Shown: in pieces, positions 4,632-44,993 of the stretch
How positions within the stretch are numbered: the stretch's first letter is position 1
Layout of the letters: every line of letters begins with the position of its first letter
DNA from: Candidatus Kaiserbacteria bacterium
GTDB taxonomy: Bacteria > Patescibacteriota > Minisyncoccia > Phycocordibacterales > JABMNX01
NCBI GenBank assembly: GCA_016186705.1
Contig: JACPLB010000001.1
Location: 11,106-75,105, forward strand
Reading direction: 5' to 3'
Length of the DNA: 64,000 nucleotides
Translations under genes and position numbers: made by a program
Notes under the pieces: generated by a model
The model's input: only the letters and a program-made list of their open reading frames with translations
What the model was told of the DNA's origin: nothing
Database searches by the model: none

Positions 4632-4940
4632 ATGAGCACGCTCGCACTTATTTTCATCGGTCTTCTCGGGATACTCCTCGGGTACACAATGGGCAGGCGT
4701 GATATCCGCGCGCGAATGACCGCTTTTGTGAATGAAGAGCGTCTTCTCCATAAAGAGAAATGGAAGGGTATGATTATGAAACATCTTCGCGAACGCGGGG
4801 AGTTGACCAATAGTGACGTGCGGGAATTACTCGGAGTGTCAGACACGACGGTTGTGAGGTATTTTGACGAACTTGAAAAAGAAGGGAAAGTTGTGCAGAC
4901 GGGGAAGAGCGGTCGCGGCGTGCATTACGAACTCGCGTGA
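4632..4940 (+). CDS. Small membrane-anchored winged-helix (HTH) protein
   Basis: 102 aa with an N-terminal TM helix and a C-terminal LTNSDVRELLGVSDTTVVRYFDELEKEGKV...GRGVHYEL wHTH. Confidence 0.5.
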   Translation: MSTLALIFIGLLGILLGYTMGRRDIRARMTAFVNEERLLHKEKWKGMIMKHLRERGELTNSDVRELLGVSDTTVVRYFDELEKEGKVVQTGKSGRGVHYELA

Positions 4941-4992: not shown

Positions 4993-5553
4993 ATGCTCGC
5001 TATGGCGTATGATTTTTCTTCACTAAAGAAAAAGATTTCCGATACGGAAGTCTGGCTCAAGAAGGAATTCCAGAGCATTCGCACCGGCAGGGCAGTCCCC
5101 GCGCTTCTTGACGGCATTCAGGTGGAATCGTACGGTTCCCGCGTGTCTCTTAACCACGTGGGAAGCATCGGCATTGAGGACCCGCGCACGCTCCGCGTTT
5201 CGGTATGGAATACGGAACAGGTAAAAGACGTTGAGCGGGCGATTACCGACGCGAACCTCGGCGTCGGCGTCTCATCTGACGAGAAAGGCGTTCGCGTGAC
5301 ATTTCCAGAGCTTACATCAGAGAGGCGCGAGATGCTCATAAAGCTCGCGAAAGATAAAAGGGAAGACGCACGTGTCTCACTCCGGAGCGAGCGCGACCTG
5401 GTCTGGAGCGACATCCAAAAAAAGGAGCGGGACGGAGAGGTCGGCGAAGACGACAAATTCAGATACAAGGAAGAGATGCAGAAGCTTGTTGACAAAGGCA
5501 ATAAAGCGCTTGACGCATTGATGGAGAAAAAAGAAGCAGAAATCCACTCTTAG
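4993..5553 (+). CDS. frr: Ribosome recycling factor
   Basis: The internal ATG of ORF 4864..5553 gives ~186 aa with Frr motifs (IRTGRA...LL, VWN..., TDANLG). Confidence 0.85.
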   Translation: MLAMAYDFSSLKKKISDTEVWLKKEFQSIRTGRAVPALLDGIQVESYGSRVSLNHVGSIGIEDPRTLRVSVWNTEQVKDVERAITDANLGVGVSSDEKGVRVTFPELTSERREMLIKLAKDKREDARVSLRSERDLVWSDIQKKERDGEVGEDDKFRYKEEMQKLVDKGNKALDALMEKKEAEIHS

Positions 5554-5563
5554 TCTTGTTTTT

Positions 5564-5596
5564 ACTGGAAGCTCTAAGCTAAAAGCTGTAAGCTAT
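5564..5596 (+). repeat. AAGCT-heptad element copy (ACTGGAAGCTCTAAGCTAAAAGCTGTAAGCTA) 4 nt upstream of the rseP ATG
   Basis: Four tandem AAGCTNN heptads; near-identical to the copy at 40135-40167. Confidence 0.8.
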
Positions 5597-8009: not shown

Positions 8010-9085
8010 CATTTCGCGAAACAATCAAAAACTACCTTGAAAAACTGTATCGGCTGTTTTCGCATGACATCGGCATAGACCTCGGCACCGCAAACACGCT
8101 TGTGTATCTCCGCGGGCGCGGAGTCGTCATTAATGAACCGTCCATTGTTGCGGTGAACCAAAAAACGGGACAGATTGTTGCCATCGGCACGCAGGCAAAG
8201 GAGATGCTCGGGAGAACTCCGGGGCACATCACGGCGGTTCAGCCTGTGGTTGACGGTGTCATCTCCGACTTCGAAGTGACGGAAGAGATGCTCGCGTATC
8301 TCATTAACAAGGCACAAGAAGGTCGCCGGTCGCTCTTCGGACCGCGGGTTGTCGTCGGGGTACCGTCCGGCATTACGAGCGTCGAGATACGCGCGGTTCG
8401 AGACGCCGCGAAAAACGCCGGCGCTCGGGAAGTTCATATTATTGAAGAGCCCATGGCCGCGGCAATCGGCATGAAGCTTCCGGTGCACGAGCCCATCGGC
8501 AGTATGGTGGTTGATATCGGCGGGGGCACATGCGACGTGGCGATTATTTCGCTCGGCGGCATCGTTCAGTCGAAGAACGTTCGTATCGCTGGAGACCGGC
8601 TTAATCAAGACATCGCGTCGTACATCAGAAGCGAGTTTAAAATTCTCATCGGGGAAAAAACTGCGGAATCCCTCAAAATTGCCGCGGTATCTTTGCTTGA
8701 AGGCGGGGAGCCGATTGAAGCGACGGTGCGCGGACGGGACCTTGTAACGGGTCTTCCGCGCGAAGTCGTCATCACGGACTCCGACATTCGCGAGGCAATT
8801 TCAAATTCAATCAATCATTTGATTGACGCCGTGAAGGAGGTTCTTGAGACGACACCGCCCGAGGTTCTCTCCGATGTCATGCAAAGGGGCATGTACCTTG
8901 CCGGCGGCGGCGCTCTTATCCGGGGGCTCCCCGAAGCCCTTGAAAACGTGCTGGGCATTCCCGTGTACGTAACTGATGACCCCCTCTCCGCCGTCGTGCG
9001 CGGTACCGGTATTGTCCTTGAAAACATTGACCTCTATAGAGAAACCCTCATAGAAAATGAAAACGAGCTTTCTCCGACAGAGTAA
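8006..9085 (+). CDS. mreB: Rod shape-determining actin homolog MreB (paralog 2), first gene of mreBCD
   Basis: 359 aa with GIDLGTANTLVYL...NEPSIVA and DIGGGT; followed by mreC and mreD. Confidence 0.85.
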   Translation: MTFRETIKNYLEKLYRLFSHDIGIDLGTANTLVYLRGRGVVINEPSIVAVNQKTGQIVAIGTQAKEMLGRTPGHITAVQPVVDGVISDFEVTEEMLAYLINKAQEGRRSLFGPRVVVGVPSGITSVEIRAVRDAAKNAGAREVHIIEEPMAAAIGMKLPVHEPIGSMVVDIGGGTCDVAIISLGGIVQSKNVRIAGDRLNQDIASYIRSEFKILIGEKTAESLKIAAVSLLEGGEPIEATVRGRDLVTGLPREVVITDSDIREAISNSINHLIDAVKEVLETTPPEVLSDVMQRGMYLAGGGALIRGLPEALENVLGIPVYVTDDPLSAVVRGTGIVLENIDLYRETLIENENELSPTE

Positions 9086-9869
9086 AGAATCACGTGCGCG
9101 AGTCGGACGAATTCCGCGCGCTTTTGCAGTCATTGGTCTCCTTGTTCTCATTATCCTTGGCGTTAATTACGCGACGTTCGGCGGACTTTCACGCGTCTTG
9201 CATACGATTGGAAATCCTCTGTGGAAAGCGCAGGCACGGGCGGGAGGCGCCGTAGACGGCGTCTTCGCAGGATTTAAAGACAAGCAATCGCTCCGCGAGG
9301 AAAACAAACGTCTCAAAGAAGAGATTGTTCGTCTCACATTTTCGTCGATTTCCGCGGAAGTTTTGCGTCATGAAAACGAGGACCTGCGGCGCCTTCTTCA
9401 ACGCGAAGGGGAAGTTGAGCGTATCGCCGCGGCAGTGCTCGCGCGCCCCAGTCGCTCTCTCTACGATACGTTTGTGGTTGATGTCGGAAGGAAAAATGGA
9501 GTTGTGATGAACGCACGTGTCTTTGGAGCGGGAGATATCGTCATCGGCACTGTTGCCGAAGTGTATCCAAGCACGTCTCTGGTGAGTCTCTACTCGACGC
9601 CGGGACGCACAACGGAGATATTTGTGGGAGATGATTCGGCAATCTCCGCAGAAGCGGTTGGCCGTGGCGGGGGAGATTTTGAAGTGAAACTCCCGCGCGG
9701 CGTCGAAGTGACAGCGGGGACTCCGGTATTTTCTCCGCTTCTTCAAGGCGGAATACTTGGCGTTGTCGAGGATGTCGTCGCACTTCCGTCAAATTCATTC
9801 CAAACGATTCTCTTTAGCAGTCCCGTTAATATACAGTCGCTGCGTACTGTAGCGGTTGAACTACAATGA
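9057..9869 (+). CDS. mreC: Rod shape-determining protein MreC
   Basis: 270 aa with an N-terminal TM segment and a coiled-coil (ENKRLKEEI...ENEDLRRLL); positioned after mreB. Confidence 0.75.
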   Translation: MKTSFLRQSKESRARVGRIPRAFAVIGLLVLIILGVNYATFGGLSRVLHTIGNPLWKAQARAGGAVDGVFAGFKDKQSLREENKRLKEEIVRLTFSSISAEVLRHENEDLRRLLQREGEVERIAAAVLARPSRSLYDTFVVDVGRKNGVVMNARVFGAGDIVIGTVAEVYPSTSLVSLYSTPGRTTEIFVGDDSAISAEAVGRGGGDFEVKLPRGVEVTAGTPVFSPLLQGGILGVVEDVVALPSNSFQTILFSSPVNIQSLRTVAVELQ

Positions 9870-10138
9870 CGCTACTCCGCATAGTGCTCGCGTCTCTGTT
9901 TTTTTCAAGCGTTTTCTTTTCCCCCTGGGTTATAACGGTCCTTTTTGCGTGCATGCTTCTCATTGTCTCTTCCGGATACGAAATTATTTTTGGCGGGCTT
10001 ATGCTCGATCTTCTCTACGGTGTCGCCGTTCCGGCGTACGCCGGCGTGCCGCTCCTCTTCACTGTCTTTTTTTGCATCCTTTTCGTCGCGAGCTTTTATA
10101 TAAAAAAGCACCTCATGTTTTATCACAATCGCGTATAG
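9866..10138 (+). CDS. mreD: MreD-like small polytopic membrane protein (unusually short, 90 aa)
   Basis: Hydrophobic 90-aa ORF in the canonical mreD position between mreC and PBP2. Confidence 0.5.
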   Translation: MTLLRIVLASLFFSSVFFSPWVITVLFACMLLIVSSGYEIIFGGLMLDLLYGVAVPAYAGVPLLFTVFFCILFVASFYIKKHLMFYHNRV

Positions 10139-14104: not shown

Positions 14105-14770
14105 CTAATTGCGTTTTCTCGCGTGAGCCCCAAGCTTTGGGAGTACGTGGTGATAAAGCACCGGGATAATAATCGCGAGCTGGATGCCTGCAAACCAGAT
14201 TCCCGTAAGCCACTTCCCGTCGGCAATGGTGAGACCGCTTCCGATGAGGAATAGTCCCCACGTTGTCAGGTTCTCGTAATGCCTCTCGTAGATGGTCGCC
14301 CGAATGAGCGGCCATGTTGCGACCGTTAGGCCGAAGAGGGAGGTTACGAGCCCGAGCGTCGACGTCCTGACGCTCCACCAGAGTATCATCACCTCCTTTT
14401 CGAGATTCGGCATGATGCCGAATTCCCAGATGATGACTGCGGCAATGATTATGCTGCAAGCGGTGTCGTTCTTGCTCCACTTGCTGGGTTTTCCGTACCA
14501 CCATGAGAGTACAACGGCGATGAGCGCCCCTGCGGTGAAGACGAGTATCAGGAGGTCGAAAACTCCGCGACCGAGCTGGCCCTTGAATGCCAACGTATCG
14601 AGGATGAGAAGCAGGAGCCATGTCGAGAAGACGATAGTCTGCTTGCCGTTGACGATTTGGTAGACGTAGTAAGCTACTGCCGTTGCGGAGAAGACGACTA
14701 CGCCGAATCCCCATGAGGTCGCGACTATCGCGTACCCGAAGAGAGTCACGTTGATGAGGGTCGAATCCAT
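14105..14770 (-). CDS. Hypothetical polytopic membrane protein (6-7 TM)
   Basis: 221 aa and strongly hydrophobic. Preferred over the overlapping Arg-rich 13947..14840 ORF on the same strand. Confidence 0.55.
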   Translation of the reverse strand: MDSTLINVTLFGYAIVATSWGFGVVVFSATAVAYYVYQIVNGKQTIVFSTWLLLLILDTLAFKGQLGRGVFDLLILVFTAGALIAVVLSWWYGKPSKWSKNDTACSIIIAAVIIWEFGIMPNLEKEVMILWWSVRTSTLGLVTSLFGLTVATWPLIRATIYERHYENLTTWGLFLIGSGLTIADGKWLTGIWFAGIQLAIIIPVLYHHVLPKLGAHARKRN

Positions 14771-14903: not shown

Positions 14904-14990
14904 TATAGTATCTCCAGTCAAAGAGTCTCTTTTGTTTTCTCATACACACACATTTCCCTTGGGGGCATGTGGATAACTGTGTTTTATAAA

Positions 14991-15036
14991 GTGGGATAGA
15001 GTGTCATATACTACTCTGATAGTGGGGAAAAGTGGG
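14991..15036 (+). promoter_or_regulatory. Candidate MraZ operator: three GTGGG direct repeats (14991, 15022, 15032), the last two spaced 10 bp apart, just upstream of the mraZ ATG
   Basis: Seen in the sequence. MraZ proteins are known to bind repeated GTGGG boxes upstream of mraZ. Confidence 0.45.
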
Positions 15037-15040
15037 AATT

Positions 15041-15475
15041 ATGCTCATCGGCGAATACACACATTCCTTGGATACGAAAAAGCGATTGTCTCTGCCGAAG
15101 AAGTTTCGCACCGAACTCGGCAGGAAGGTCGTTGTAACACGCGGTCTCGACAACTGCCTTTTCATGTATCCGATGCAGGCGTGGAGAAAAACGGCGAAAC
15201 GCCTTGAGGAGTTATCGTTCGCGCAAGCAGATACCCGCGGATTTAACCGCTTTATGCTCTCCGGTGCCGTTGAAGTTGATATTGACTCGGTCGGCCGCAT
15301 TCTCGTTCCCGATTTTTTGAAAGAATTCGCGGGGCTCAAGAGTAAGGTCGTTCTTGCCGGAGTAAATGACCGCGTTGAGATATGGAACGAGGGCGCGTGG
15401 AGCGAGTACAAGACGCGTATTGAACGGCAAGCCGACGCGATGGCCGAAAAGCTCGGGGAGATCGGCGCCTTGTAG
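15041..15475 (+). CDS. mraZ: Division/cell-wall cluster transcriptional regulator MraZ
   Basis: MLIGEYTHSLD... and the two-SpoVT/AbrB-like-domain signature; first gene of the dcw cluster. Confidence 0.85.
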   Translation: MLIGEYTHSLDTKKRLSLPKKFRTELGRKVVVTRGLDNCLFMYPMQAWRKTAKRLEELSFAQADTRGFNRFMLSGAVEVDIDSVGRILVPDFLKEFAGLKSKVVLAGVNDRVEIWNEGAWSEYKTRIERQADAMAEKLGEIGAL

Positions 15476-15505
15476 CTTTCAGCTTATGGTTTTCAGCTTT
15501 CAGGA
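15474..15505 (-). repeat. AAGCT-heptad element, inverted copy (TAGCTTTCAGCTTATGGTTTTCAGCTTTCAGG) right after the mraZ stop
   Basis: Reverse complement of the AAGCTNN x4 pattern. Confidence 0.7.
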
Positions 15506-15519
15506 ATGGTTTGAATCTA

Positions 15520-15549
15520 CAAGCTTAAAGCTCTTAGCTGAAAGCTGAA
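15520..15549 (+). repeat. AAGCT-heptad element copy (CAAGCTTAAAGCTCTTAGCTGAAAGCTGAA) 3 nt upstream of the rsmH ATG
   Basis: Forward orientation, immediately 5' of the start codon. Confidence 0.75.
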
Positions 15550-21450: not shown

Positions 21451-21477
21451 GGGGGCGCACCATGAACGGTGCGCCCC
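21451..21477 (+). terminator. Rho-independent terminator (GGGGGCGCACC-atgaac-GGTGCGCCCC + T-rich)
   Basis: 10-bp GC stem followed by TTAAACTTTTAAAT. Confidence 0.6.
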
Positions 21478-21576
21478 TTAAACTTTTAAATATTTACTGG
21501 GGTATGTATATGCTGTACAATCCGATGAATAACACACCTGTATGTGTTATTTCTTTTGGCTTATTTCGGACATATC

Positions 21577-21609
21577 CTGAAAGCTCAAAGCTCTAAGCTA
21601 AAAGCTAAT
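21577..21609 (+). repeat. AAGCT-heptad element copy (CCTGAAAGCTCAAAGCTCTAAGCTAAAAGCTAATC) ending 2 nt before tRNA-Glu
   Basis: Forward orientation directly 5' of the tRNA gene. Confidence 0.75.
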
Positions 21610-21611
21610 CT

Positions 21612-21683
21612 GGCCCTATCGTCTAACGGTCAGGACACAGGCTTCTCAAGCCTGGAATCGGGGTTCGATTCCCCGTAGGGTCA
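21612..21683 (+). tRNA. tRNA-Glu (anticodon CUC)
   Basis: Hand-folded cloverleaf: acceptor GGCCCTA/TAGGGTC, D-arm GTCT...GGAC, anticodon stem CAGGC/GCCTG with loop TTCTCAA, T-arm CGGGG-TTCGATT-CCCCG, discriminator A. CCA is not encoded. Confidence 0.8.
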
Positions 21684-21774
21684 TGATTTGACAAAAATCG
21701 TTGTTTATGCTATTCTATATTTAGTTAAACCAGCCCCGTCGCATTGCGACAATCATCTGAAGAGGAGAGACCAC

Positions 21775-25262: not shown

Positions 25263-25266
25263 TGTT

Positions 25267-25299
25267 AAAAGCGCGACCCTGGGTTAGTCGCGCTTTTCG
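25267..25299. terminator. Bidirectional terminator (AAAAGCGCGACCC-tgggtta-GTCGCGCTTTTCG)
   Basis: GC stem flanked by A- and T-runs. Confidence 0.6.
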
Positions 25300-25598
25300 A
25301 GCAACAGGTTTCCCTGCCGACTCTTTATATCCTCCAATCTTTTTCTCTTTTCCTCCCTTCTTTTTCTCTTCTCCTCTCTCCGTTTGTTCTCCCTTTTCTT
25401 GAAATTGCCGAAGCGTCCTTGCTCGGAGAGTATCCTTCGTTCGAGCTCGAAATCGCAGAGCTTTCGGGACATACTGAAGTACTCTTGTATAACGTACCGA
25501 GTTATTCTTCCCTCAAACCCGCGGCAACCTCGAGCCCATCGGCTAATCCTTACAAAATAGCCGTACGCTTCAGAGTCTTTCGGTTTGTATCGGGGCAC
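25284..25598 (-). CDS. Hypothetical highly charged low-complexity protein (KR/E-rich C-terminus); may be one frameshifted gene together with 25613..25834
   Basis: 104-aa ORF whose C-terminus (RENKRREEKRKRREEKRKRLEDIK) is encoded by a polypurine tract. Coding status uncertain. Confidence 0.25.
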   Translation of the reverse strand: MPRYKPKDSEAYGYFVRISRWARGCRGFEGRITRYVIQEYFSMSRKLCDFELERRILSEQGRFGNFKKRENKRREEKRKRREEKRKRLEDIKSRQGNLLLEKRD

Positions 25599-25612
25599 CG
25601 AGCACCTCTCTT

Positions 25613-25834
25613 TCAGTTGTTCGGAGCTTCAGGACCGAAGACCGGGATGACGTGCTCGTTTGCGTCTCGACGACGCGCTTCTTCCTCACGTTCACGCAGT
25701 TCTTCTGCGCGGTCATCAAGAATCTTCTGGCGTTCCCGCTTCCTTGCGGTCGCCATCCCTCCTTTGCGGCCGGCTCTGCGGAGAAACTCGCTCTCTCCTT
25801 GAACGACCGCCTTTTGGATATACTGTGGTTTCAC
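25613..25834 (-). CDS. Hypothetical small charged protein (73 aa, Arg/Glu-rich helix)
   Basis: ORF with ATARKRERQKILDDRAEELREREEEARRRD. Same strand as 25284..25598 in a different frame, 14 nt apart. Confidence 0.25.
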   Translation of the reverse strand: MKPQYIQKAVVQGESEFLRRAGRKGGMATARKRERQKILDDRAEELREREEEARRRDANEHVIPVFGPEAPNN

Positions 25835-25933
25835 TTTACACCTCTTTCATCTTTCAAAGAACTGTTTCGGAAAGGCTTGGGGGTCGCACACCTCTCTTGA
25901 GGCGTACGGACCCCCTCAAGCCCTGCCCTCTCT

Positions 25934-26266
25934 TTAGGACGCCAAGACGAACTCGACGTCGCGTATGCTCGGAAGCGGGGTATCCATAACCTCGATACCA
26001 ACCCTTCCGAGATCCTCCCGTAACCACTCAATCTCGTTTGGCATGTCGTACGACGGAACCTTCCGTCTGATATGCGCCGAGTGCCGTTCCGCGTCGCAGA
26101 AAATGTTTGATGTTTTTGAGAACACCTTGTGCATCTTCTTCACTCGCGCGAACGAGAACACTGTCCGCACGTGGTCGGGGATGATTGAGACCCCGATAAG
26201 GACGTCAGAAACTTTTTTCCCGACATTCTGCGGAAAAACCAGAAAACCGTTTACGTCTTTTTTCAT
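25934..26266 (-). CDS. Hypothetical protein (110 aa)
   Basis: ORF without a recognisable motif; ordinary composition. Confidence 0.4.
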   Translation of the reverse strand: MKKDVNGFLVFPQNVGKKVSDVLIGVSIIPDHVRTVFSFARVKKMHKVFSKTSNIFCDAERHSAHIRRKVPSYDMPNEIEWLREDLGRVGIEVMDTPLPSIRDVEFVLAS

Positions 26267-26347
26267 GAGCTCGTCTCCTTATCTGAGACGCGCTCCCCAT
26301 GAACTGCTATAGACTATATCACCTAAAATAGAAACTGTCAATAATGA

Positions 26348-26800
26348 CTAAGAGAGGAGCTCGTCAACGACTTCCTTTACATCCTTGCCGTCAGCTTTCC
26401 CTTTAAGCTCTTTCATAACGGCGCCAATGAGTATTCCCGCTTTTGATGTATCCGAAATCTGCAATTCCTGCTTTTTTGTTTCAACGACTGTGCGAATATC
26501 TTCCTTTTTCATTGTCTCAGGAAGGTATGTTTTCAATATGGCAAGCTCCGCTTTTTCATTGTCCGCCAGATCTTTTCTACCGCCTTTTTCAAATTGTTCA
26601 ATAGAGTCTTCCCGCGGTTTGACGCCGCGTTTGATGACTAAAAGCGCGCTTTCATCGTCAATTTTCTCGTCAGGTTTCTTTTTTTGGGCGACAAGCTCAT
26701 TCGTAAAGCCCGCGAGGAGTCCGCGAAGCACACTCACACGGAGCGTTTCCCGCGCTTTCATCGCACTCGTCAGTTCATTGCGAATCTTTTCGGCTATCAT
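26348..26800 (-). CDS. yqeY: GatB/YqeY-domain protein
   Basis: 150 aa; MIAEKIRNELTSAMKARE...RVSVLRGLLA..., typical of the YqeY family. Confidence 0.75.
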   Translation of the reverse strand: MIAEKIRNELTSAMKARETLRVSVLRGLLAGFTNELVAQKKKPDEKIDDESALLVIKRGVKPREDSIEQFEKGGRKDLADNEKAELAILKTYLPETMKKEDIRTVVETKKQELQISDTSKAGILIGAVMKELKGKADGKDVKEVVDELLS

Positions 26801-30748: not shown

Positions 30749-31174
30749 ATGGCTGTTATACGAGAGATGAAAAAAAACGCACCCGTGAAAGATGTGGCAG
30801 GGAAAAAGACGGAGAAAAAGCCCGCCAAGAAAACCGTTAAAAAGGTGCGAAATACGGAGGAGTTTGCGGTTATTGAGACCGGCGGAAAGCAGTACGTCGT
30901 CACGGAAGGTGACGTGATTACGATTGAAAAGCTCTCGGGCGATTTTAAAGCGGGGGACAGAGTTACTTTTGATAAGGTACTTCTTGTTGATAACGGCAAG
31001 GACACGACTATCGGCACTCCGTACATCAAAGGAGCGAAAGTCGTCGGCTCATTTGAAGAGACAGGGAAGGGGAAGAAAATCTACATCATCAAGTTTAAAT
31101 CAAAATCTCGCTACGCACGGAAAGCCGGACATCGCCAGCCGTATACGAAGGTTCGCATAGAAGCGTTGAAGTAA
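30749..31174 (+). CDS. rplU: 50S ribosomal protein L21 with a Lys-rich N-terminal extension
   Basis: FAVIETGGKQYVVTEGDVI... core; the extension is KKTEKKPAKKTVKK. Confidence 0.85.
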   Translation: MAVIREMKKNAPVKDVAGKKTEKKPAKKTVKKVRNTEEFAVIETGGKQYVVTEGDVITIEKLSGDFKAGDRVTFDKVLLVDNGKDTTIGTPYIKGAKVVGSFEETGKGKKIYIIKFKSKSRYARKAGHRQPYTKVRIEALK

Positions 31175-32200: not shown

Positions 32201-32231
32201 AGCTTGTAGCTTTCAGGTTTTAGCTTTTAGG
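32201..32231 (-). repeat. AAGCT-heptad element copy (minus-strand reading CCTAAAAGCTAAAACCTGAAAGCTACAAGCT) 5 nt upstream of the recR ATG
   Basis: Same orientation as the downstream gene. Confidence 0.7.
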
Positions 32232-38966: not shown

Positions 38967-39239
38967 TCAGAGAATATCCACTGCCTTCTTCAGCCGTACC
39001 GCGCCGTCATAACCCGTTTTTCGGCGATTGCGAAAATACACTGTACCGTCTTTTAAGGCAAAAAGCGTATGGTCTTTTCCAAGCCCTACGTTCTTTCCGG
39101 GAAGCACTTGTGTGCCGCGCTGGCGAACGATAATAGAGCCGGTTTTCGCCTTCTCGCCGCTGTATAGTTTTATGCCAAGGTATTTTGGATTTGAATCGCG
39201 CAGGTTTTTCGCTGTTCCACCTGCTTTTTTATGCGCCAT
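38967..39239 (-). CDS. rpmA: 50S ribosomal protein L27
   Basis: [24 protein letters not shown]...SIIVRQRGT, the L27 signature. Confidence 0.9.
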
Positions 39240-39245
39240 ATATTA

Positions 39246-39278
39246 GGTTTTAGCTTAAAGCTTTTAGCTTTCAGAGTA
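39246..39278 (-). repeat. AAGCT-heptad element copy directly upstream of the rpmA ATG (minus reading CTGAAAGCTAAAAGCTTTAAGCTAAAACC)
   Basis: Same orientation as rpmA, 6 nt from the start codon. Confidence 0.7.
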
Positions 39279-39341: not shown

Positions 39342-39722
39342 ATGAGTATACGGGATGTATTCTTTAAAATCAAGGGGTTTTTCGCGTATCCGCCTATCGA
39401 TATTCTTGTCGTACTCATCATTATTCTTATTGGTTCTGCGGGGTTTGGACTCGGGCGTCTCTCGGCTCTTCAAGACAACGTCGTCCCCGTTACTGTCATA
39501 CAACAAGAAAGAAGTGCGCAGGCTTCAGTTAGTACTGCTAGTACTGCCATAACTGCGCCTTCAGACTCCGTGGTCGCTTCTAAAGTTGGCACTAAGTATC
39601 ATTTCCCATGGTGTCCGGGGGCGCAACAAATTTCTGAAAAAAATAAAATTACCTTTATCTCCGCTGAAGAAGCCCGAGCTTCGGGTTATACTCCCGCGGC
39701 AAATTGCAAAGGGCTTGAATAG
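39342..39722 (+). CDS. Membrane-anchored protein with a C-terminal Ada-like zinc-binding motif
   Basis: N-terminal TM; the C-terminus YHFPWCPGAQQISEKNKITFISAEEARASGYTPAANCKG resembles the Ada Zn-binding consensus YH.p.C.....i...N...F.s..eA...GyrPC..C. Confidence 0.45.
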   Translation: MSIRDVFFKIKGFFAYPPIDILVVLIIILIGSAGFGLGRLSALQDNVVPVTVIQQERSAQASVSTASTAITAPSDSVVASKVGTKYHFPWCPGAQQISEKNKITFISAEEARASGYTPAANCKGLE

Positions 39723-39754
39723 CTCCTGATTTAGAGCTTTTAGCTTTCAGGAGC
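39721..39754 (-). repeat. AAGCT-heptad element, inverted copy (AGCTCCTGATTTAGAGCTTTTAGCTTTCAGGAGC) overlapping the stop of 39342..39722
   Basis: Reverse complement of the heptad array. Confidence 0.65.
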
Positions 39755-39810: not shown

Positions 39811-40023
39811 TCAAGGCCGGGATTTTTTTGAGGAAGCGGGCGACTTGATTTGTCTTCCGAACCATATGAAGATTCCCCCGACAAGGTTCCTGATTTGCTT
39901 GAGGATCCACCGATTCAGCTTTCCGACAGCTTTTGGTCCGCCGAGAATCATAGCGAATCCGTTTGCCATGATGAGCGCGACCAAAAATATGCCGAATAAA
40001 CCGGTCCACGAAATTTGTTCCAT
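39811..40023 (-). CDS. Small membrane protein, TatA/E-like (low confidence)
   Basis: 71 aa from an internal ATG: an N-terminal TM then an amphipathic GGPKAVGKLNRWILKQIRN segment, loosely like TatA (FGPKKLPELGRSLGKAI). Confidence 0.3.
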   Translation of the reverse strand: MEQISWTGLFGIFLVALIMANGFAMILGGPKAVGKLNRWILKQIRNLVGGIFIWFGRQIKSPASSKKSRP

Positions 40024-40134
40024 GGAAAATCTCCTTATTTCCACGTTTCTACCTTCTTTAATTATATACCAAAAATAACAGTGTGTCAAGGTTACGCATT
40101 ACGGTGAAGTATGTAAAAAATTACTGTCTATTTG

Positions 40135-40167
40135 ACTGGAAGCTAGAAGCTAAAAGCTGTAAGCTAA
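40135..40167 (+). repeat. AAGCT-heptad element copy (ACTGGAAGCTAGAAGCTAAAAGCTGTAAGCTAA) 4 nt upstream of the ATG at 40172
   Basis: Differs from the 5564 copy at only 2 positions. Confidence 0.8.
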
Positions 40168-40171
40168 TGGG

Positions 40172-40777
40172 ATGATTGTTATAGACATTGAAGCGTCGGG
40201 GACCGAATACCATAAGCATTCAATCGTTTCGATTGGAGCGCTTGATTTTGATAATCCGACCAATCAATTTTACGACGAGTGCCGGATATGGGACGGGGCG
40301 CACATTATGGATGAGGCGCTTCTCGTCAACGGTTTTACGAAAGAAGAAATTACGGACGAAAATAAAAAACCCGAAGCGGAAATTGTTCGGGCCTTCCTCG
40401 CGTGGGCAGGGGACATTGAAGACAGAACACTTGCCGGACAGAACGTCTCTTTTGACCGCGATTTTCTCAAAGCAGCGGCGGAGCGGGCGCACCTTGACTG
40501 GACTCTGCCGCACCGCACTATAGACACGCATACGCTCGCGTGGATGCACATAGTAAAACACGGAGGAAAGCCGCCGATAGAGAATCATCGTTCTGCGCTG
40601 AATCTTGACGCTGTGTTAAACTACGTCGGCATTCCCGACGAGCCGACCCCGCACAATGCGCTCACGGGCGCGATGTCGCACGCCGAAATCATTTCACGAC
40701 TTTTATACGACAAGAAACTGCTTCCGGAATTTAATGCGCATGAGATTCCTTGGATTGAGGAGAAGGGGAGTATATAA
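40172..40777 (+). CDS. DEDDh 3'-5' exonuclease (DnaQ/oligoribonuclease-like)
   Basis: VIDIEASG (exo I), FDRDFL (exo II) and HNALTGAMSHAE (exo III, H-x4-D type). Confidence 0.7.
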   Translation: MIVIDIEASGTEYHKHSIVSIGALDFDNPTNQFYDECRIWDGAHIMDEALLVNGFTKEEITDENKKPEAEIVRAFLAWAGDIEDRTLAGQNVSFDRDFLKAAAERAHLDWTLPHRTIDTHTLAWMHIVKHGGKPPIENHRSALNLDAVLNYVGIPDEPTPHNALTGAMSHAEIISRLLYDKKLLPEFNAHEIPWIEEKGSI

Positions 40778-43504: not shown

Positions 43505-43640
43505 GCGTGAAATAGAGTTAGTGGTGCGATAACAATCGACCTTACTGTTTTATTATCCCATTACACACATGCGCCACAAGTGTGTTGTGCACATTTTTGG
43601 TCCCCTCTCTAAAAGCTAAAAACTAACATCTGAAAGCTTT

Positions 43641-44993
43641 TTACAGGTACGAGAGCGGATTCAGGTAAGCGTCAAGCGGCGCAATCGGTATCTCCACATT
43701 CCTGCAGTTGACGCTCTTCGTAAAGCGTTCAATTCGGACCCCCTGTGTTGCGTACACGGTAAAGTGAAGGTGCGGACCGGTCGAGTAGCCCGTGTTTCCG
43801 CTAAAGCCGATGACATCTCCCGTTGATACGTTTTGCCCAAGGTTAACCGAAATATGCGAGAGGTGCGCGTAGAGCGTTGTAAGTCCGTTGTTGTGCTTCA
43901 CGAGCACCCATTTGCCGTACGAATAGCATCCTCTCTGTGTGTCGGTATTTCCGGTCCCCGTCACGGTACCGGTAAGTGCCACCTGCACTTTTGTGCCGAC
44001 GCTCGCCCTGAAGTCGACGCCATTATGACCCGCTCCCCTGTAAATTTGCGGGTTTTGAGTGGCAAACGGCGTGTTGCCGAAATATTGTGTAATACAGTAA
44101 ATATTTTTTAATTGGCCGTTAAACGCCTTACATCCCTGCATGTAGCTGTCGGAAAAAGGAAACCGCAGGATACCGGAACCGTATGGAGGAATGCTGTTGG
44201 GGTCAATCGCGATGCGCAATTGGGACTCAAGTTCAAGGAGGTCATTCTCAAATTGCTCGCGAGCGGCGATTTTCTCGTTCAATAATTTTTGATACTCCGA
44301 TTCTTTCTGCACGGTCTTGTTCAGAAGAATATTTTGTTCGGACAGCGTGCCTTCCAAGACAACTTTTTGTCCGGCAAGTTCGGTATTGTAATTCGTCAGC
44401 TCAATTTTCTTTCTCTCTGAAGACGTTTTAGTGGTCTCGAGGTCTTTCTTAAGTTTAATAAGGTCTCGGAGCTCGTCCCGAACGACAATCTGAAACCGCT
44501 GAAGCGTCTCGAGCTGGTCCCAAAATTCGTTCAGATTGTCATGCCCGAGAACAACCTCAATCATTGACTGGGATTCCATTTCGTTGATATTCCGCAGTGC
44601 CAGAGACACCGCGTCCGTATTGTTTTCAATACGTCCGCTCTTATCCGTAATGTCCCGAGAAAGCTCCTGTATCTGAAGCGTTGTCGAGTAAATGCGATTT
44701 TGCGTAATTTGTATGTTTGTTAGGAGCTTTTTCCTCGAGAGATTGAGTTCGCTTACGGTGCTCTCTAACGTCCTTTTCTCGCCCCCGATGTGTGTGAGCT
44801 CCGTCTCATACCGAGCAATGTCTTTCTCAAGTTCATCTATTTTTGCGCCATAGTCGGAGATTTGTTTCTGAATCTCCTCAATGCTTTGAGCGGAAGCATT
44901 CGGCGGAGCTATGCTTATCCACCCGACCGCAAAAACCGCGAGTATACAGAGCGTGCGAATATGCGTAAAAATATGTATCCTCTCCCCTGTCAT
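43641..44993 (-). CDS. M23/LytM peptidase with N-terminal coiled-coil (EnvC-like murein hydrolase activator)
   Basis: Signal peptide, long coiled-coil and HNGVDF...GYSTGPHLHF, the LytM motifs. Confidence 0.8.
   Translation of the reverse strand: MTGERIHIFTHIRTLCILAVFAVGWISIAPPNASAQSIEEIQKQISDYGAKIDELEKDIARYETELTHIGGEKRTLESTVSELNLSRKKLLTNIQITQNRIYSTTLQIQELSRDITDKSGRIENNTDAVSLALRNINEMESQSMIEVVLGHDNLNEFWDQLETLQRFQIVVRDELRDLIKLKKDLETTKTSSERKKIELTNYNTELAGQKVVLEGTLSEQNILLNKTVQKESEYQKLLNEKIAAREQFENDLLELESQLRIAIDPNSIPPYGSGILRFPFSDSYMQGCKAFNGQLKNIYCITQYFGNTPFATQNPQIYRGAGHNGVDFRASVGTKVQVALTGTVTGTGNTDTQRGCYSYGKWVLVKHNNGLTTLYAHLSHISVNLGQNVSTGDVIGFSGNTGYSTGPHLHFTVYATQGVRIERFTKSVNCRNVEIPIAPLDAYLNPLSYL

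What the first reader, a model, noticed from the sequence alone, without database searches (positions are those of the whole stretch)
5564..5596. Dispersed ~30-nt AAGCTNN x4 heptad element sitting immediately 5' of start codons
A conserved element made of four tandem AAGCTNN heptads, exemplified by ACTGGAAGCTCTAAGCTAAAAGCTGTAAGCTA, recurs at least nine times in 64 kb, always in intergenic DNA. In gene-matching orientation it ends 2-6 nt before the start codon of rseP (5564-5596), rsmH (15520-15549), tRNA-Glu (21577-21609), recR (32201-32231, minus), rpmA (39246-39278, minus) and the exonuclease gene at 40172 (40135-40167). Inverted copies lie at 15474-15505 and 39721-39754, and a degenerate copy at 43598-43640. 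The 5564 and 40135 copies differ at only 2 positions. None of these genes has a Shine-Dalgarno sequence, so the element itself may act as the promoter or translation-initiation context or as a binding site for a heptad-reading regulator. It could also be a MITE/REP-like mobile repeat. The AAGCTT core is palindromic (HindIII-like).
Basis: seen in the sequence. Interest (0 to 1): 0.6.

Follow-up and report, generated by a model that had tools for sequence, protein, structure and literature searches.

The report
Four-heptad repeat abutting gene starts
A 30-base element made of four AAGCTNN repeats sits 5-6 bases in front of several essential genes and one tRNA in a Kaiserbacteria (CPR) genome that mostly makes leaderless mRNAs; it most likely acts as a spreading promoter cassette, and it is a new variant of a little-studied, still unexplained class of heptamer repeats found just upstream of start codons.

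Summary
A fixed-length element, (y)CT-RN-(AA[G/C]CT-NN)x3-AA[G/C]CT, occurs 9 times in the window and once more 5.9 kb upstream in the same genome. It is always intergenic (14 hits against 0.01 expected by chance).

Seven copies point at a gene and end 5-6 nt before a verified ATG (rseP, rsmH, recR, rpmA, an exonuclease, glutaredoxin) or before the mature 5' end of tRNA-Glu. Three copies point the other way and abut a stop codon.

The organism is a Candidatus Kaiserbacteria. Its ordinary genes carry TTGnnn-17-TAnAAT ending 6-8 nt before the ATG, so they are leaderless. Its leadered genes use AAGGAG. The element-bearing genes have neither signal, and the last heptad supplies an invariant A...T where the -10 box normally sits.

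Close relatives lack the element: a 72-nt inverted pair is inserted between mraZ and rsmH. Other relatives carry heptad arrays with different cores (CACCTAA, TAATTCT, AACTAAC) at the same junctions.

Best reading, at moderate confidence (about 0.45): a lineage-amplified promoter cassette for leaderless transcripts. No transcript 5' ends were available, and a canonical promoter lies upstream of the tRNA copy, so an RNA-leader role remains a serious rival. The closest known relatives are the unexplained TAACTGA repeats of Beggiatoaceae and cyanobacteria.

The parts
5565..5594 (+). Forward copy. CTGG AAGCTCT AAGCTAA AAGCTGT AAGCT, then ATTTCT, then the ATG of rseP (5601).
   Evidence: Peptidase_M50 matches from residue 6. 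Logan contigs break inside this copy.
15474..15503 (-). Reverse copy. CTGA AAGCTGA AAACCAT AAGCTGA AAGCT. Its last CT overlaps the TAG stop codon of mraZ. It is the left arm of a back-to-back pair.
   Evidence: The pair folds to -28.4 kcal/mol, z = -2.9. It is part of a 72-nt insert that is absent from L248, L250 and L251.
15517..15546 (+). Forward copy. CTAC AAGCTTA AAGCTCT TAGCTGA AAGCT, then GAATTC, then the ATG of rsmH (15553), the first gene of the dcw cluster.
   Evidence: Methyltransf_5 matches from residue 2.
21577..21606 (+). Forward copy. CTGA AAGCTCA AAGCTCT AAGCTAA AAGCT, then AATCT, then G21612, the mature 5' end of tRNA-Glu(CTC).
21493..21521 (+). Canonical sigma-70-like promoter, TTTACT-17-TACAAT, 55 nt upstream of the tRNA-Glu copy. 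It follows a terminator hairpin at 21451-21477. It is a caveat for the promoter reading, because it could drive the tRNA with the element inside the leader.
32201..32230 (-). Forward copy relative to recR. CTAA AAGCTAA AACCTGA AAGCTAC AAGCT, then CCACA, then the ATG of recR (32195). It fills the 43-nt dnaB-recR spacer.
39245..39274 (-). Forward copy relative to rpmA. CTGA AAGCTAA AAGCTTT AAGCTAA AACCT, then AATAT, then the ATG of rpmA (39239). It lies in a 102-nt divergent spacer.
39723..39754 (-). Decayed reverse copy. CTCCTGA AAGCTAA AAGCTCT AAATCAG GAGCT. It abuts the TAG stop codon of the + strand gene 39342-39722 and follows the terminator of the converging minus-strand gene.
40136..40165 (+). 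Forward copy. CTGG AAGCTAG AAGCTAA AAGCTGT AAGCT, then AATGGG, then the ATG of a 3'-5' exonuclease (40172). No canonical promoter lies on this strand in the divergent spacer.
43609..43638 (+). Degenerate reverse-class copy. CTAA AAGCTAA AAACTAA CATCTGA AAGCT. It ends 2 nt from the stop codon of the minus-strand M23 peptidase gene (43641-44993).

Best explanation
The element is a compact promoter cassette for leaderless transcripts. It has been amplified recently in this Kaiserbacteria lineage.

Proposed mechanism (inferred, not shown):
- RNA polymerase holoenzyme uses the last heptad (nAAGCT, with an invariant A and T four bases apart) as a weak -10 element.
- It uses the y-CT-G/A prefix plus the first heptad, two helical turns upstream, as the -35-side contact.
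- Transcription then starts 6-7 nt downstream of the last T. That is the A of the ATG, or G+1 of tRNA-Glu.
- Because the genome translates 5'-terminal AUGs, no leader or Shine-Dalgarno sequence is needed.

The cassette has been copied or inserted into very short gene junctions. There it splits formerly coupled genes into separately started units. Only two kinds of insertion survive: those whose 3' end lands at promoter distance from a start codon, and, in the opposite orientation, those tucked against a stop codon.

Shown here: the anatomy, the spacing, the leaderless context, the insertion relative to close relatives, and the replacement by canonical -10 boxes at an orthologous tRNA.

Inferred only: that transcription starts there, which protein parts read the element, and why the two inner heptads stay conserved.
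For: 1. Spacing. Seven of ten copies end 5-6 nt before a verified ATG or before tRNA position +1, in gene orientation.

2. Leaderless context. In this genome TAnAAT/TAnnAT boxes peak 6-8 nt before start codons (15 of 70 genes match exactly), and there is no Shine-Dalgarno peak. Eighteen genes align as TTGnnn-17-TAnAAT-6/8-ATG.

3. Leadered genes do use strong Shine-Dalgarno sequences: AAGGAGG before 14770, and AAGGAG before the gene at 40023 behind a perfect TTGACA-17-TATAAT. Element-bearing genes have neither a Shine-Dalgarno sequence nor a canonical -10 box.

4. Conservation pattern. The first A and the T of the last heptad are invariant. Cores deviate at about 7% of positions, against 50% or more at the NN positions. 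The outer heptads are more conserved than the inner ones. This argues for selection on the cores rather than mere recent copying.

5. The exonuclease gene has no canonical promoter in its divergent spacer.

6. Insertion. Relative to L248, the 72-nt pair was inserted between the mraZ stop codon and the rsmH start, which are 5 nt apart in L248, L250 and L251. The essential dcw genes downstream must therefore get their start signal from the insert.

7. Orthologous tRNA-Glu genes in relatives carry -10-like boxes 5-8 nt upstream instead of the element.

8. The same geometry (element, then 4-7 nt, then ATG) recurs in other CPR contigs: Saccharibacteria L063, Kaiserbacteria L091, Uhrbacteria rpsP L098, and yebC L138, rpmB L143, L141, L147, L153, L161.

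9. Single copies have no RNA structure (z = -0.15 to -1.3) and match no Rfam family.

10. The inverted pair would fold the leader into a -28 kcal/mol hairpin. That is hard to reconcile with a role as an unstructured leader.
Against: - No transcript 5' ends are available.
- The element matches the sigma-70 consensus poorly. The scanner never flags it. The -35-side base is CTG in only 5 of 9 copies, at an 18-nt spacer.
- The strong conservation of the two inner heptads is not explained by sigma contacts.
- A good canonical promoter (TTTACT-17-TACAAT, 21493-21521) lies 55 nt upstream of the tRNA copy. A similar one lies upstream of the rpmB copy in L143. The element may therefore sit inside a leader at those sites.
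- Three of ten copies point antisense into gene 3' ends, where promoter activity has no obvious use.
- Heptad arrays in relatives do not all offer an A...T at the right distance. Examples are TAACACC in L256 and L219, where the gap is 2-4 nt.
- In Selenomonadaceae, similar heptad pairs lie downstream of a canonical promoter, within 5' UTRs.
Confidence: 0.45

Rival explanations
1. The element is transcribed and works as RNA. It would be a G-poor, unstructured, Shine-Dalgarno-less leader, (AAGCUNN)4, placed directly before the AUG. It would either let ribosomes load or re-initiate on internal cistrons, or mark a processing site that trims polycistronic RNA to leaderless mRNAs and trims the tRNA leader. 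This is the role proposed for TAACTGA repeats.
For: - Four of the seven forward copies lie between co-directional genes with no room for another promoter: frr-rseP, dnaB-recR, mraZ-rsmH and PBP-grx.
- A canonical promoter lies upstream of the tRNA copy and of the rpmB copy in L143.
- All forward heptad families in relatives are A-rich, G-poor and rich in stop codons.
- The analogous TAACTGA repeats were interpreted this way (PMC4679880).
- Selenomonadaceae heptad pairs lie in 5' UTRs and end 6-7 nt before the Shine-Dalgarno sequence.
Against: - A translation signal has no role 5 nt before a tRNA.
- Leadered genes in this organism use strong Shine-Dalgarno sequences, which the element lacks.
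- An unstructured leader would not need a conserved AAGCT core, a fixed count of four heptads or a defined 5' edge.
- The inverted pair would sequester the leader.
- The exonuclease copy has no upstream promoter to transcribe it.
- The reverse copies read as a different RNA sequence.
Confidence: 0.22
2. The four heptads are an operator array for a DNA-binding protein that reads contiguous 7-bp units. The precedent is the omega ribbon-helix-helix repressor of plasmid pSM19035, which binds WATCACW heptads. Such a protein would co-regulate a regulon of housekeeping genes, either as a repressor over the core promoter or as an activator that recruits RNA polymerase.
For: - The cores are conserved in all four heptads while the NN positions vary. 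The copy number is fixed at four and orientation is strict.
- The AGCT core is palindromic, so both orientations could be bound.
- Proteins that read contiguous heptads are known (omega repressor; this rests on my own knowledge and was not tested here).
Against: - Relatives carry heptads with different cores at the same junctions, and sometimes two families in one genome.
- No candidate protein was identified in the window.
- The downstream genes are functionally unrelated.
- This reading still needs a promoter, which can only be the element itself. It is therefore largely an add-on to the main explanation.
Confidence: 0.12
3. The element is a selfish or neutral repeat, REPIN- or MITE-like, or born from slippage of a heptamer microsatellite, with no function of its own. 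Its strict placement would only reflect which insertion sites are tolerated in a very compact genome.
For: - The inverted pair is an insertion relative to close relatives and has 11-bp perfect terminal inverted ends.
- Copy density is lineage-specific: 10 copies in about 70 kb here, against 0 in L248, L250, L251 and L257.
- Two copies differ at only 2 positions.
- Assemblies break at the element.
- Long AAGCTNN microsatellites are common in unrelated phyla.
Against: - An insertion between a leaderless gene and its promoter, or between coupled genes, would silence essential genes (rsmH/dcw cluster, rpmA, recR) unless the element itself supplies the start signal.
- Orientation correlates with the type of neighbouring ORF end in 10 of 10 copies.
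- The cores are conserved about eightfold better than the NN positions.
- The copy number is fixed at four, unlike a microsatellite.
- Single copies are not palindromic.
- No target-site duplication and no transposase or RAYT gene was seen.
Confidence: 0.12

Closest known systems
TAACTGA heptamer direct repeats of marine Beggiatoaceae, cyanobacteria and some Bacteroidetes (MacGregor 2015, PMC4679880)
   Same: - Both are tandem 7-nt direct repeats, 2-6 per set.
- Both are almost always intergenic and point towards a nearby start codon.
- The downstream genes lack a Shine-Dalgarno sequence and include ribosomal protein genes.
- A minority of sets lie reversed next to stop codons.
- The distribution is patchy and lineage-specific.
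- The function is unknown.
- The units fit a common pattern, N-A-N-C-T-R-A: TAACTGA against AAGCTGA/AAGCTAA, and CACCTAA and CAACTAA in relatives.
   Different: - The core sequence differs (AAGCT or AACCT).
- The NN positions are variable rather than the units being identical.
- The copy number is fixed at four.
- The gap to the ATG is 5-6 nt, whereas the commonest gap in Beggiatoaceae is 1 nt.
- The host is a CPR bacterium with a mainly leaderless gene architecture.
- One copy precedes a tRNA.
- There is evidence here for a transcriptional rather than the proposed translational role.
Sigma-70-type promoters of leaderless genes, with a -10 box about 6-8 nt before the ATG, as in Actinobacteria and Deinococcus-Thermus (PMC3160421, PMC6028130)
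   Same: - The element occupies the same position relative to the start codon as this genome's own TAnAAT boxes.
- It has an invariant A and T at the spacing of -11 and -7.
- A T-G/A lies about 34 nt upstream of the start.
   Different: - The hexamers match the consensus poorly.
- The spacer is itself made of the same conserved heptads.
- The element is copied nearly verbatim between unrelated genes.
Putative mobile promoters (Matus-Garcia et al. 2012; my own knowledge) and REPIN/REP elements
   Same: - Near-identical short intergenic sequences lie upstream of unrelated genes.
- There is evidence of insertion relative to relatives.
- Copies sometimes occur as inverted doublets that can form hairpins.
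   Different: - The internal structure is heptad-periodic.
- Single units are not palindromic.
- Spacing to start codons is strict at 5-6 nt.
- No associated transposase is known.
Heptad operators of the omega repressor of pSM19035 (my own knowledge)
   Same: Both are contiguous 7-bp repeats in direct or inverted orientation that overlap promoters.
   Different: - The sequence differs (WATCACW).
- That system is plasmid-borne and has a known cognate ribbon-helix-helix protein. No such protein has been identified here.

Membership tests
Sigma-70-type promoter for a leaderless transcript | A -10 element with A at -11 and T at -7, placed about 6-8 nt before the 5'-terminal start codon | tested here: met
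   The last heptad, nAAGCT or nAACCT, has an invariant A and T and sits 5-6 nt before the ATG or tRNA +1 in 7 of 7 forward copies. Canonical boxes in this genome sit 6-8 nt before the ATG.
Sigma-70-type promoter for a leaderless transcript | Overall match to the TTGACA-17+/-1-TATAAT consensus | tested here: not met
   The consensus scanner flags none of the elements. The best reading is CTGAAA-18-nAAGCT, and the -35-side G is present in only 5 of 9 copies.
Sigma-70-type promoter for a leaderless transcript | Transcription start mapped at or next to the start codon | not testable with these tools
   No transcript data are available.
TAACTGA-type intergenic heptamer direct repeats | Tandem 7-nt direct repeats, intergenic, pointing towards a nearby start codon that lacks a Shine-Dalgarno sequence | tested here: met
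   compared with PMC4679880.
TAACTGA-type intergenic heptamer direct repeats | Repeat unit TAACTGA | tested here: not met
   The unit here is AA[G/C]CTNN. Only the pattern A-N-C-T-R-A is shared.
REP / REPIN | Each unit is an imperfect palindrome that forms a hairpin; the replicative unit is an inverted doublet | tested here: not met
   Single copies fold no better than shuffled sequence (z = -0.15 to -1.3). Only 1 of the 10 sites is an inverted doublet.
REP / REPIN | A cognate RAYT (IS200/IS605-like) transposase in the genome | not tested
   None was found among the 40 window proteins scanned against Pfam. The rest of the genome was not available.
MITE | Terminal inverted repeats flanked by a target-site duplication | tested here: inconclusive
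   The 72-nt mraZ-rsmH insert has 11-bp perfect inverted ends, but no duplication is visible at its borders. Single copies have no terminal inverted repeats.
Shine-Dalgarno ribosome-binding site | A GGAGG-like motif 5-10 nt before the start codon | tested here: not met
   No such motif lies in or after the element. The genome does use AAGGAG(G) elsewhere.
Structured RNA family (Rfam) | A match to a covariance model, or a stable conserved fold | tested here: not met
   Only the tRNA was found in the window. Single copies are unstructured.
Heptad operator of an omega-like ribbon-helix-helix protein | Two or more contiguous 7-bp repeats bound cooperatively by a cognate protein | not testable with these tools
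   The repeat architecture is present. No binding protein has been identified.

The most novel reading that the evidence does not exclude
The heptad arrays would be self-sufficient, self-propagating promoters. Four units put one unit at the -10 position and another two helical turns upstream. This would let ultra-small CPR bacteria split coupled operons and start leaderless mRNAs, and possibly a leaderless tRNA, which is so far reported only in Nanoarchaeum.

The units share the pattern A-N-C-T-R-A with the TAACTGA repeats of Beggiatoaceae, cyanobacteria and Bacteroidetes. The same reader, RNA polymerase itself, could therefore explain that decade-old unexplained repeat class as well.
Probability: 0.25. 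Interest if true: 0.8.

Novelty: new variant of a known kind. Interest (0 to 1): 0.6.

Why it matters
Transcription and translation signals of Candidate Phyla Radiation bacteria are almost unstudied. The full-text searches found no paper on CPR promoters or transcription start sites.

Three things would follow if the four-heptad element is a promoter:
- It would define a non-canonical, portable promoter architecture for leaderless genes.
- It would show how compact genomes rewire operons by dropping in a ready-made start signal.
- It would give a testable mechanism for the unexplained heptamer repeats that sit in front of start codons in several phyla.

There are practical uses too. The element marks true gene starts and breaks short-read assemblies, which matters for annotating and binning CPR genomes. 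It also offers a candidate part for genetic tools in these organisms.

Tried and rejected
- **Structured RNA or riboswitch.** Rfam finds only the tRNA. Single copies fold like shuffled sequence. Rejected.
- **Stop codons in all three frames before the ATG** (7 mod 3 = 1). Elements are rich in stop codons (3-5 against a mean of 2.1), but only 3 of 6 cover all three frames. Weak support, so not adopted.
- **AGCT as a restriction-modification or methylation target.** AGCT is neither avoided nor enriched. Rejected.
- **Further tRNA or ncRNA genes next to arrays, as a test of transcription against translation.** None was found in about 140 loci. Uninformative.
- **Exact-pattern scans of genome and metagenome collections.** No genome-wide count or taxonomic enrichment could be derived.
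- **Viral contigs.** Only 4 microsatellite-like hits.
- **Sigma-54, ECF, sigma-28 and Bacteroidetes promoter consensus sequences.** Compared by eye; spacing and invariant bases do not fit.
Its boxes are GTGGG at 10-nt spacing, and they are present upstream of mraZ. Not heptads.
- **Selenomonadaceae elements with a similar CCTKAAAGCT edge.** These are inverted pairs inside 5' UTRs, followed by a Shine-Dalgarno sequence. Treated as a look-alike, not the same system.
- **Assembly or vector artefact.** Rejected. The same junctions occur in independent assemblies of several runs, and the copies differ in their NN positions.

Full report
**Observation**

The four-heptad pattern AAGCTNN x4 gives 14 overlapping hits at nine sites in the window, against 0.01 expected from dinucleotide-preserving shuffles. 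Each site, read in its own orientation, has the same architecture:
- a pyrimidine-rich edge ending in CT;
- two variable bases, mostly G/A then N;
- four units AA[G/C]CT separated by two variable bases.

There are thus five CT dinucleotides at 7-nt spacing and four AAG, about 30 nt in all.

Every pair of adjacent AAGCT heptads in the 64 kb lies inside one of these elements. There are no 2- or 3-unit versions, and all sites are intergenic.

A tenth copy lies 5.9 kb upstream of the window in the same genome: CTAA AACCTAT AAGCTAA AACCTAC AAGCT, then AAACAT, then the glutaredoxin ATG (L252). Short-read contigs from three sequencing runs start or end exactly inside the rseP copy. This is what a de Bruijn graph does at a repeat that has further near-identical copies.

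**Placement**

Seven copies face a gene on the same strand:

| Gene | Gap from last AAGCT | Next feature |
|---|---|---|
| rseP | 6 nt | ATG |
| rsmH | 6 nt | ATG |
| exonuclease | 6 nt | ATG |
| glutaredoxin | 6 nt | ATG |
| recR | 5 nt | ATG |
| rpmA | 5 nt | ATG |
| tRNA-Glu(CTC) | 5 nt | G21612, the mature 5' end by Rfam |

Pfam domains begin at residues 2-6 of the five window proteins, so these ATGs are the real N-termini.

The other three copies point the opposite way, and each abuts the stop codon of an ORF on the other strand:
- the mraZ copy overlaps the stop codon by 2 nt;
- the copy next to 39342-39722 also overlaps by 2 nt;
- the copy next to 43641-44993 leaves a 2-nt gap.

So in 10 of 10 cases the 3' end of the element faces the nearest ORF boundary. 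The same stop-abutting class is seen in other CPR contigs (L138, L098, L039).

**Organism and its expression signals**

RsmH and RseP are identical to proteins that NCBI names Candidatus Kaiserbacteria bacterium.
- In the window, TAnAAT/TAnnAT boxes peak sharply 6-8 nt before start codons. Fifteen of 70 genes match the strict pattern, and 21 of 70 match TAnnnT.
- Shine-Dalgarno-like tetramers show no peak.
- Eighteen genes align as TTGnnn-17-TAnAAT-6/8 nt-ATG.

This is the signature of leaderless mRNAs described for other phyla (PMC3160421, PMC6028130).

Genes that do have a leader use strong Shine-Dalgarno sequences. One example is AAGGAGG before the gene at 14770. Another is AAGGAG before the small membrane-protein gene at 40023, which sits behind a perfect TTGACA-17-TATAAT.

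Element-bearing genes have neither a canonical -10 box nor a Shine-Dalgarno sequence in the 40 nt before the ATG.

**Why a promoter is the best reading**

- *Position.* The last heptad sits where the -10 box sits in this genome. Its first A and its T, four bases apart as at -11 and -7, are invariant.
- *Upstream contact.* The CT-G/A edge lies about 34 nt before the start, the distance of the TTG in this genome's canonical promoters.
- *Conservation.* Core positions deviate at about 7%, against 50% or more at the NN positions. The outer heptads are better conserved than the inner ones. This indicates selection on the cores rather than only recent copying.
- *Exonuclease gene.* It lies in a divergent spacer with no canonical promoter on its strand.
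- *Insertion.* Against L248 (RsmH 84% identical), nucleotide alignment is continuous through mraZ (88%) and from rsmH onward (78%). It breaks at a 72-nt segment in between, which is a back-to-back pair of elements. In L248, L250 and L251 the mraZ stop codon and the rsmH start are 5 nt apart. The insertion broke that coupling, so the essential dcw genes downstream must now take their start signal from the insert.
- *Orthologous tRNAs.* tRNA-Glu genes in relatives carry -10-like boxes 5-8 nt before the mature 5' end instead of the element.
- *Recurrence.* The same geometry (element, 4-7 nt, ATG) recurs in contigs of Saccharibacteria, Kaiserbacteria and Uhrbacteria (rpsP) and in unnamed low-GC contigs before yebC, rpmB, an adk-like gene, an ABC-F gene and others.
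- *No RNA fold.* Single copies have no RNA structure beyond shuffled controls and match no Rfam family. The inverted pair folds into a -28.4 kcal/mol hairpin (z = -2.9). That hairpin would bury the sequence if it were meant to be an open leader.

**What weakens it**

- There are no transcript data.
- The element scores poorly against the sigma-70 consensus and is never flagged by the scanner.
- The -35-side G is present in only 5 of 9 copies.
- Sigma contacts do not explain why the two inner heptads are conserved.
- Upstream of the tRNA copy there is a terminator hairpin (21451-21477) and then a good canonical promoter, TTTACT-17-TACAAT (21493-21521). This promoter has no start codon at leaderless distance. 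It may therefore drive the tRNA with the element inside an 84-nt leader. The rpmB copy in L143 has a similar upstream promoter.
- Three copies point antisense into gene ends.

These points keep a post-transcriptional role, as a leader or a processing signal, alive as the main rival.

**The wider family**

Relatives with 66-70% identical RseP show that heptad arrays are a general feature of these genomes, but their cores differ.

| Junction | Genome | What lies there |
|---|---|---|
| frr-rseP | L257 | 3 nt only |
| frr-rseP | L258 | 38 nt of TAATTCT units running up to the ATG |
| frr-rseP | L256 | about 125 nt: reversed units right after the stop codon, then forward CACCTAA units ending 5 nt before the ATG |
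| mraZ-rsmH | same genome as L256 | reversed/forward pair ending CACCTAA AAGCT + AAAATT + ATG |
| murA-ftsA | the window and L257 | 2 nt only |
| murA-ftsA | L256 and L258 | heptad arrays |

So arrays appear and disappear at tight operon junctions, with lineage-specific cores. This argues against a conserved AAGCT-specific regulator.

Most units fit N-A-N-C-T-R/W-A, as does TAACTGA. In most cases a TA or an A...T falls 6-8 nt before the ATG, but not in all (L219, and ftsA in L256).

**Comparison with the literature**

- The sets have 2-6 copies and are mostly intergenic.
- They point at start codons that lack a Shine-Dalgarno sequence, and most often end 1 nt upstream.
- A minority face stop codons.
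- The function is unknown, and a translational role was proposed (PMC4679880).

The element here is a new variant of that kind. It has a different core, variable NN positions, a fixed four-unit length, a 5-6 nt gap, a CPR host with leaderless architecture, and one copy before a tRNA.

Full-text searches found nothing on promoters or transcription start sites in CPR bacteria. Leaderless tRNAs are reported only for Nanoarchaeum.

**Verdict**

The finding is real and non-random. It is best explained as a lineage-amplified promoter cassette for leaderless transcripts (confidence about 0.45). The rivals are:
- a leader or processing element acting as RNA (about 0.22);
- an operator array for a heptad-reading protein (about 0.12);
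- a functionless selfish repeat (about 0.12).

One 5'-end mapping experiment would decide between the first two.

Noticed in passing
L252:21-95 (tRNA-Asn); L248:5943-6017, L250:16497-16569 and L251:16301-16373 (tRNA-Glu); L033:129-205: In Kaiserbacteria-like contigs, -10-like boxes sit only 5-8 nt before the mature 5' ends of several tRNAs, for example AACAAT+ATTAT and TAGAAT+8 nt. This suggests tRNAs made with almost no 5' leader. Leaderless tRNAs are so far reported only for the archaeon Nanoarchaeum equitans, which lacks RNase P.
   Followed up: partly
whole window: GATC (35 observed, about 200-250 expected) and GGCC (46 observed, about 160-216 expected) are strongly under-represented. AGCT is not. 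This points to restriction-modification pressure on those two sites.
   Followed up: no
window 14985-15040: GTGGG boxes lie at about 14991, 15022 and 15032, the last two 10 nt apart. They overlap the TATACT -10 box just upstream of the mraZ ATG (15041). They look like MraZ autoregulatory boxes.
   Followed up: no
L256:4991-5096, 8216-8258 and 9834-9960; L258:971-1059 and 4851-4892; L249:9889-10000: Relatives carry heptad arrays with other cores (TAATTCT, CACCTAA, AACTAAC, and reversed GGAATTA and GTTTTAG) at the same operon junctions. Reversed arrays sit directly after stop codons and forward arrays run up to the next ATG.
   Followed up: partly
L002:5150-5270; L027:4370-4470 and 5370-5475; L094:3830-3935; L003:2425-2505: Rumen Selenomonadaceae have inverted pairs of AAGCTNN heptads with the same CCTKAAAGCT inner edge. 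The pairs end 6-7 nt before a GGAGG Shine-Dalgarno sequence. In L002 the pair lies just downstream of TTGACA-17-TAAAAT, so it is a 5'-UTR hairpin.
   Followed up: partly
loci L001-L243 (genome and metagenome pattern scans): Long, imperfect AAGCTNN heptamer microsatellites of up to about 50 units are widespread in Acidobacteriota, Halomonas, Alcanivorax, Pseudomonas, cyanobacteria and others. Examples are AAGCTAG, AAGCTGG, AAGCTCG and AAGCTAC.
   Followed up: no
window 30749-31174 and 38967-39239: rplU (L21) and rpmA (L27), usually in one operon, are 8 kb apart on opposite strands. As called, L21 has an N-terminal extension of about 38 residues before the Pfam domain starts.
   Followed up: no
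window 25263-26384: This 1.1-kb stretch has a long pyrimidine tract (25320-25400) and only short ORFs without Pfam hits. AT skew in this region is strongly negative.
   Followed up: no
window 39811-40089: A perfect TTGACA-17-TATAAT promoter (40089-40061) drives a leadered small membrane-protein gene with an AAGGAG site (ATG at 40023). It is followed by a clean intrinsic terminator (39782-39765). This shows the genome uses canonical leadered expression alongside leaderless genes.
   Followed up: partly
window 21612-21687: The tRNA-Glu(CTC) gene does not encode the 3' CCA. The tRNA-Glu(TTC) gene in the relative L248 does encode it.
   Followed up: no
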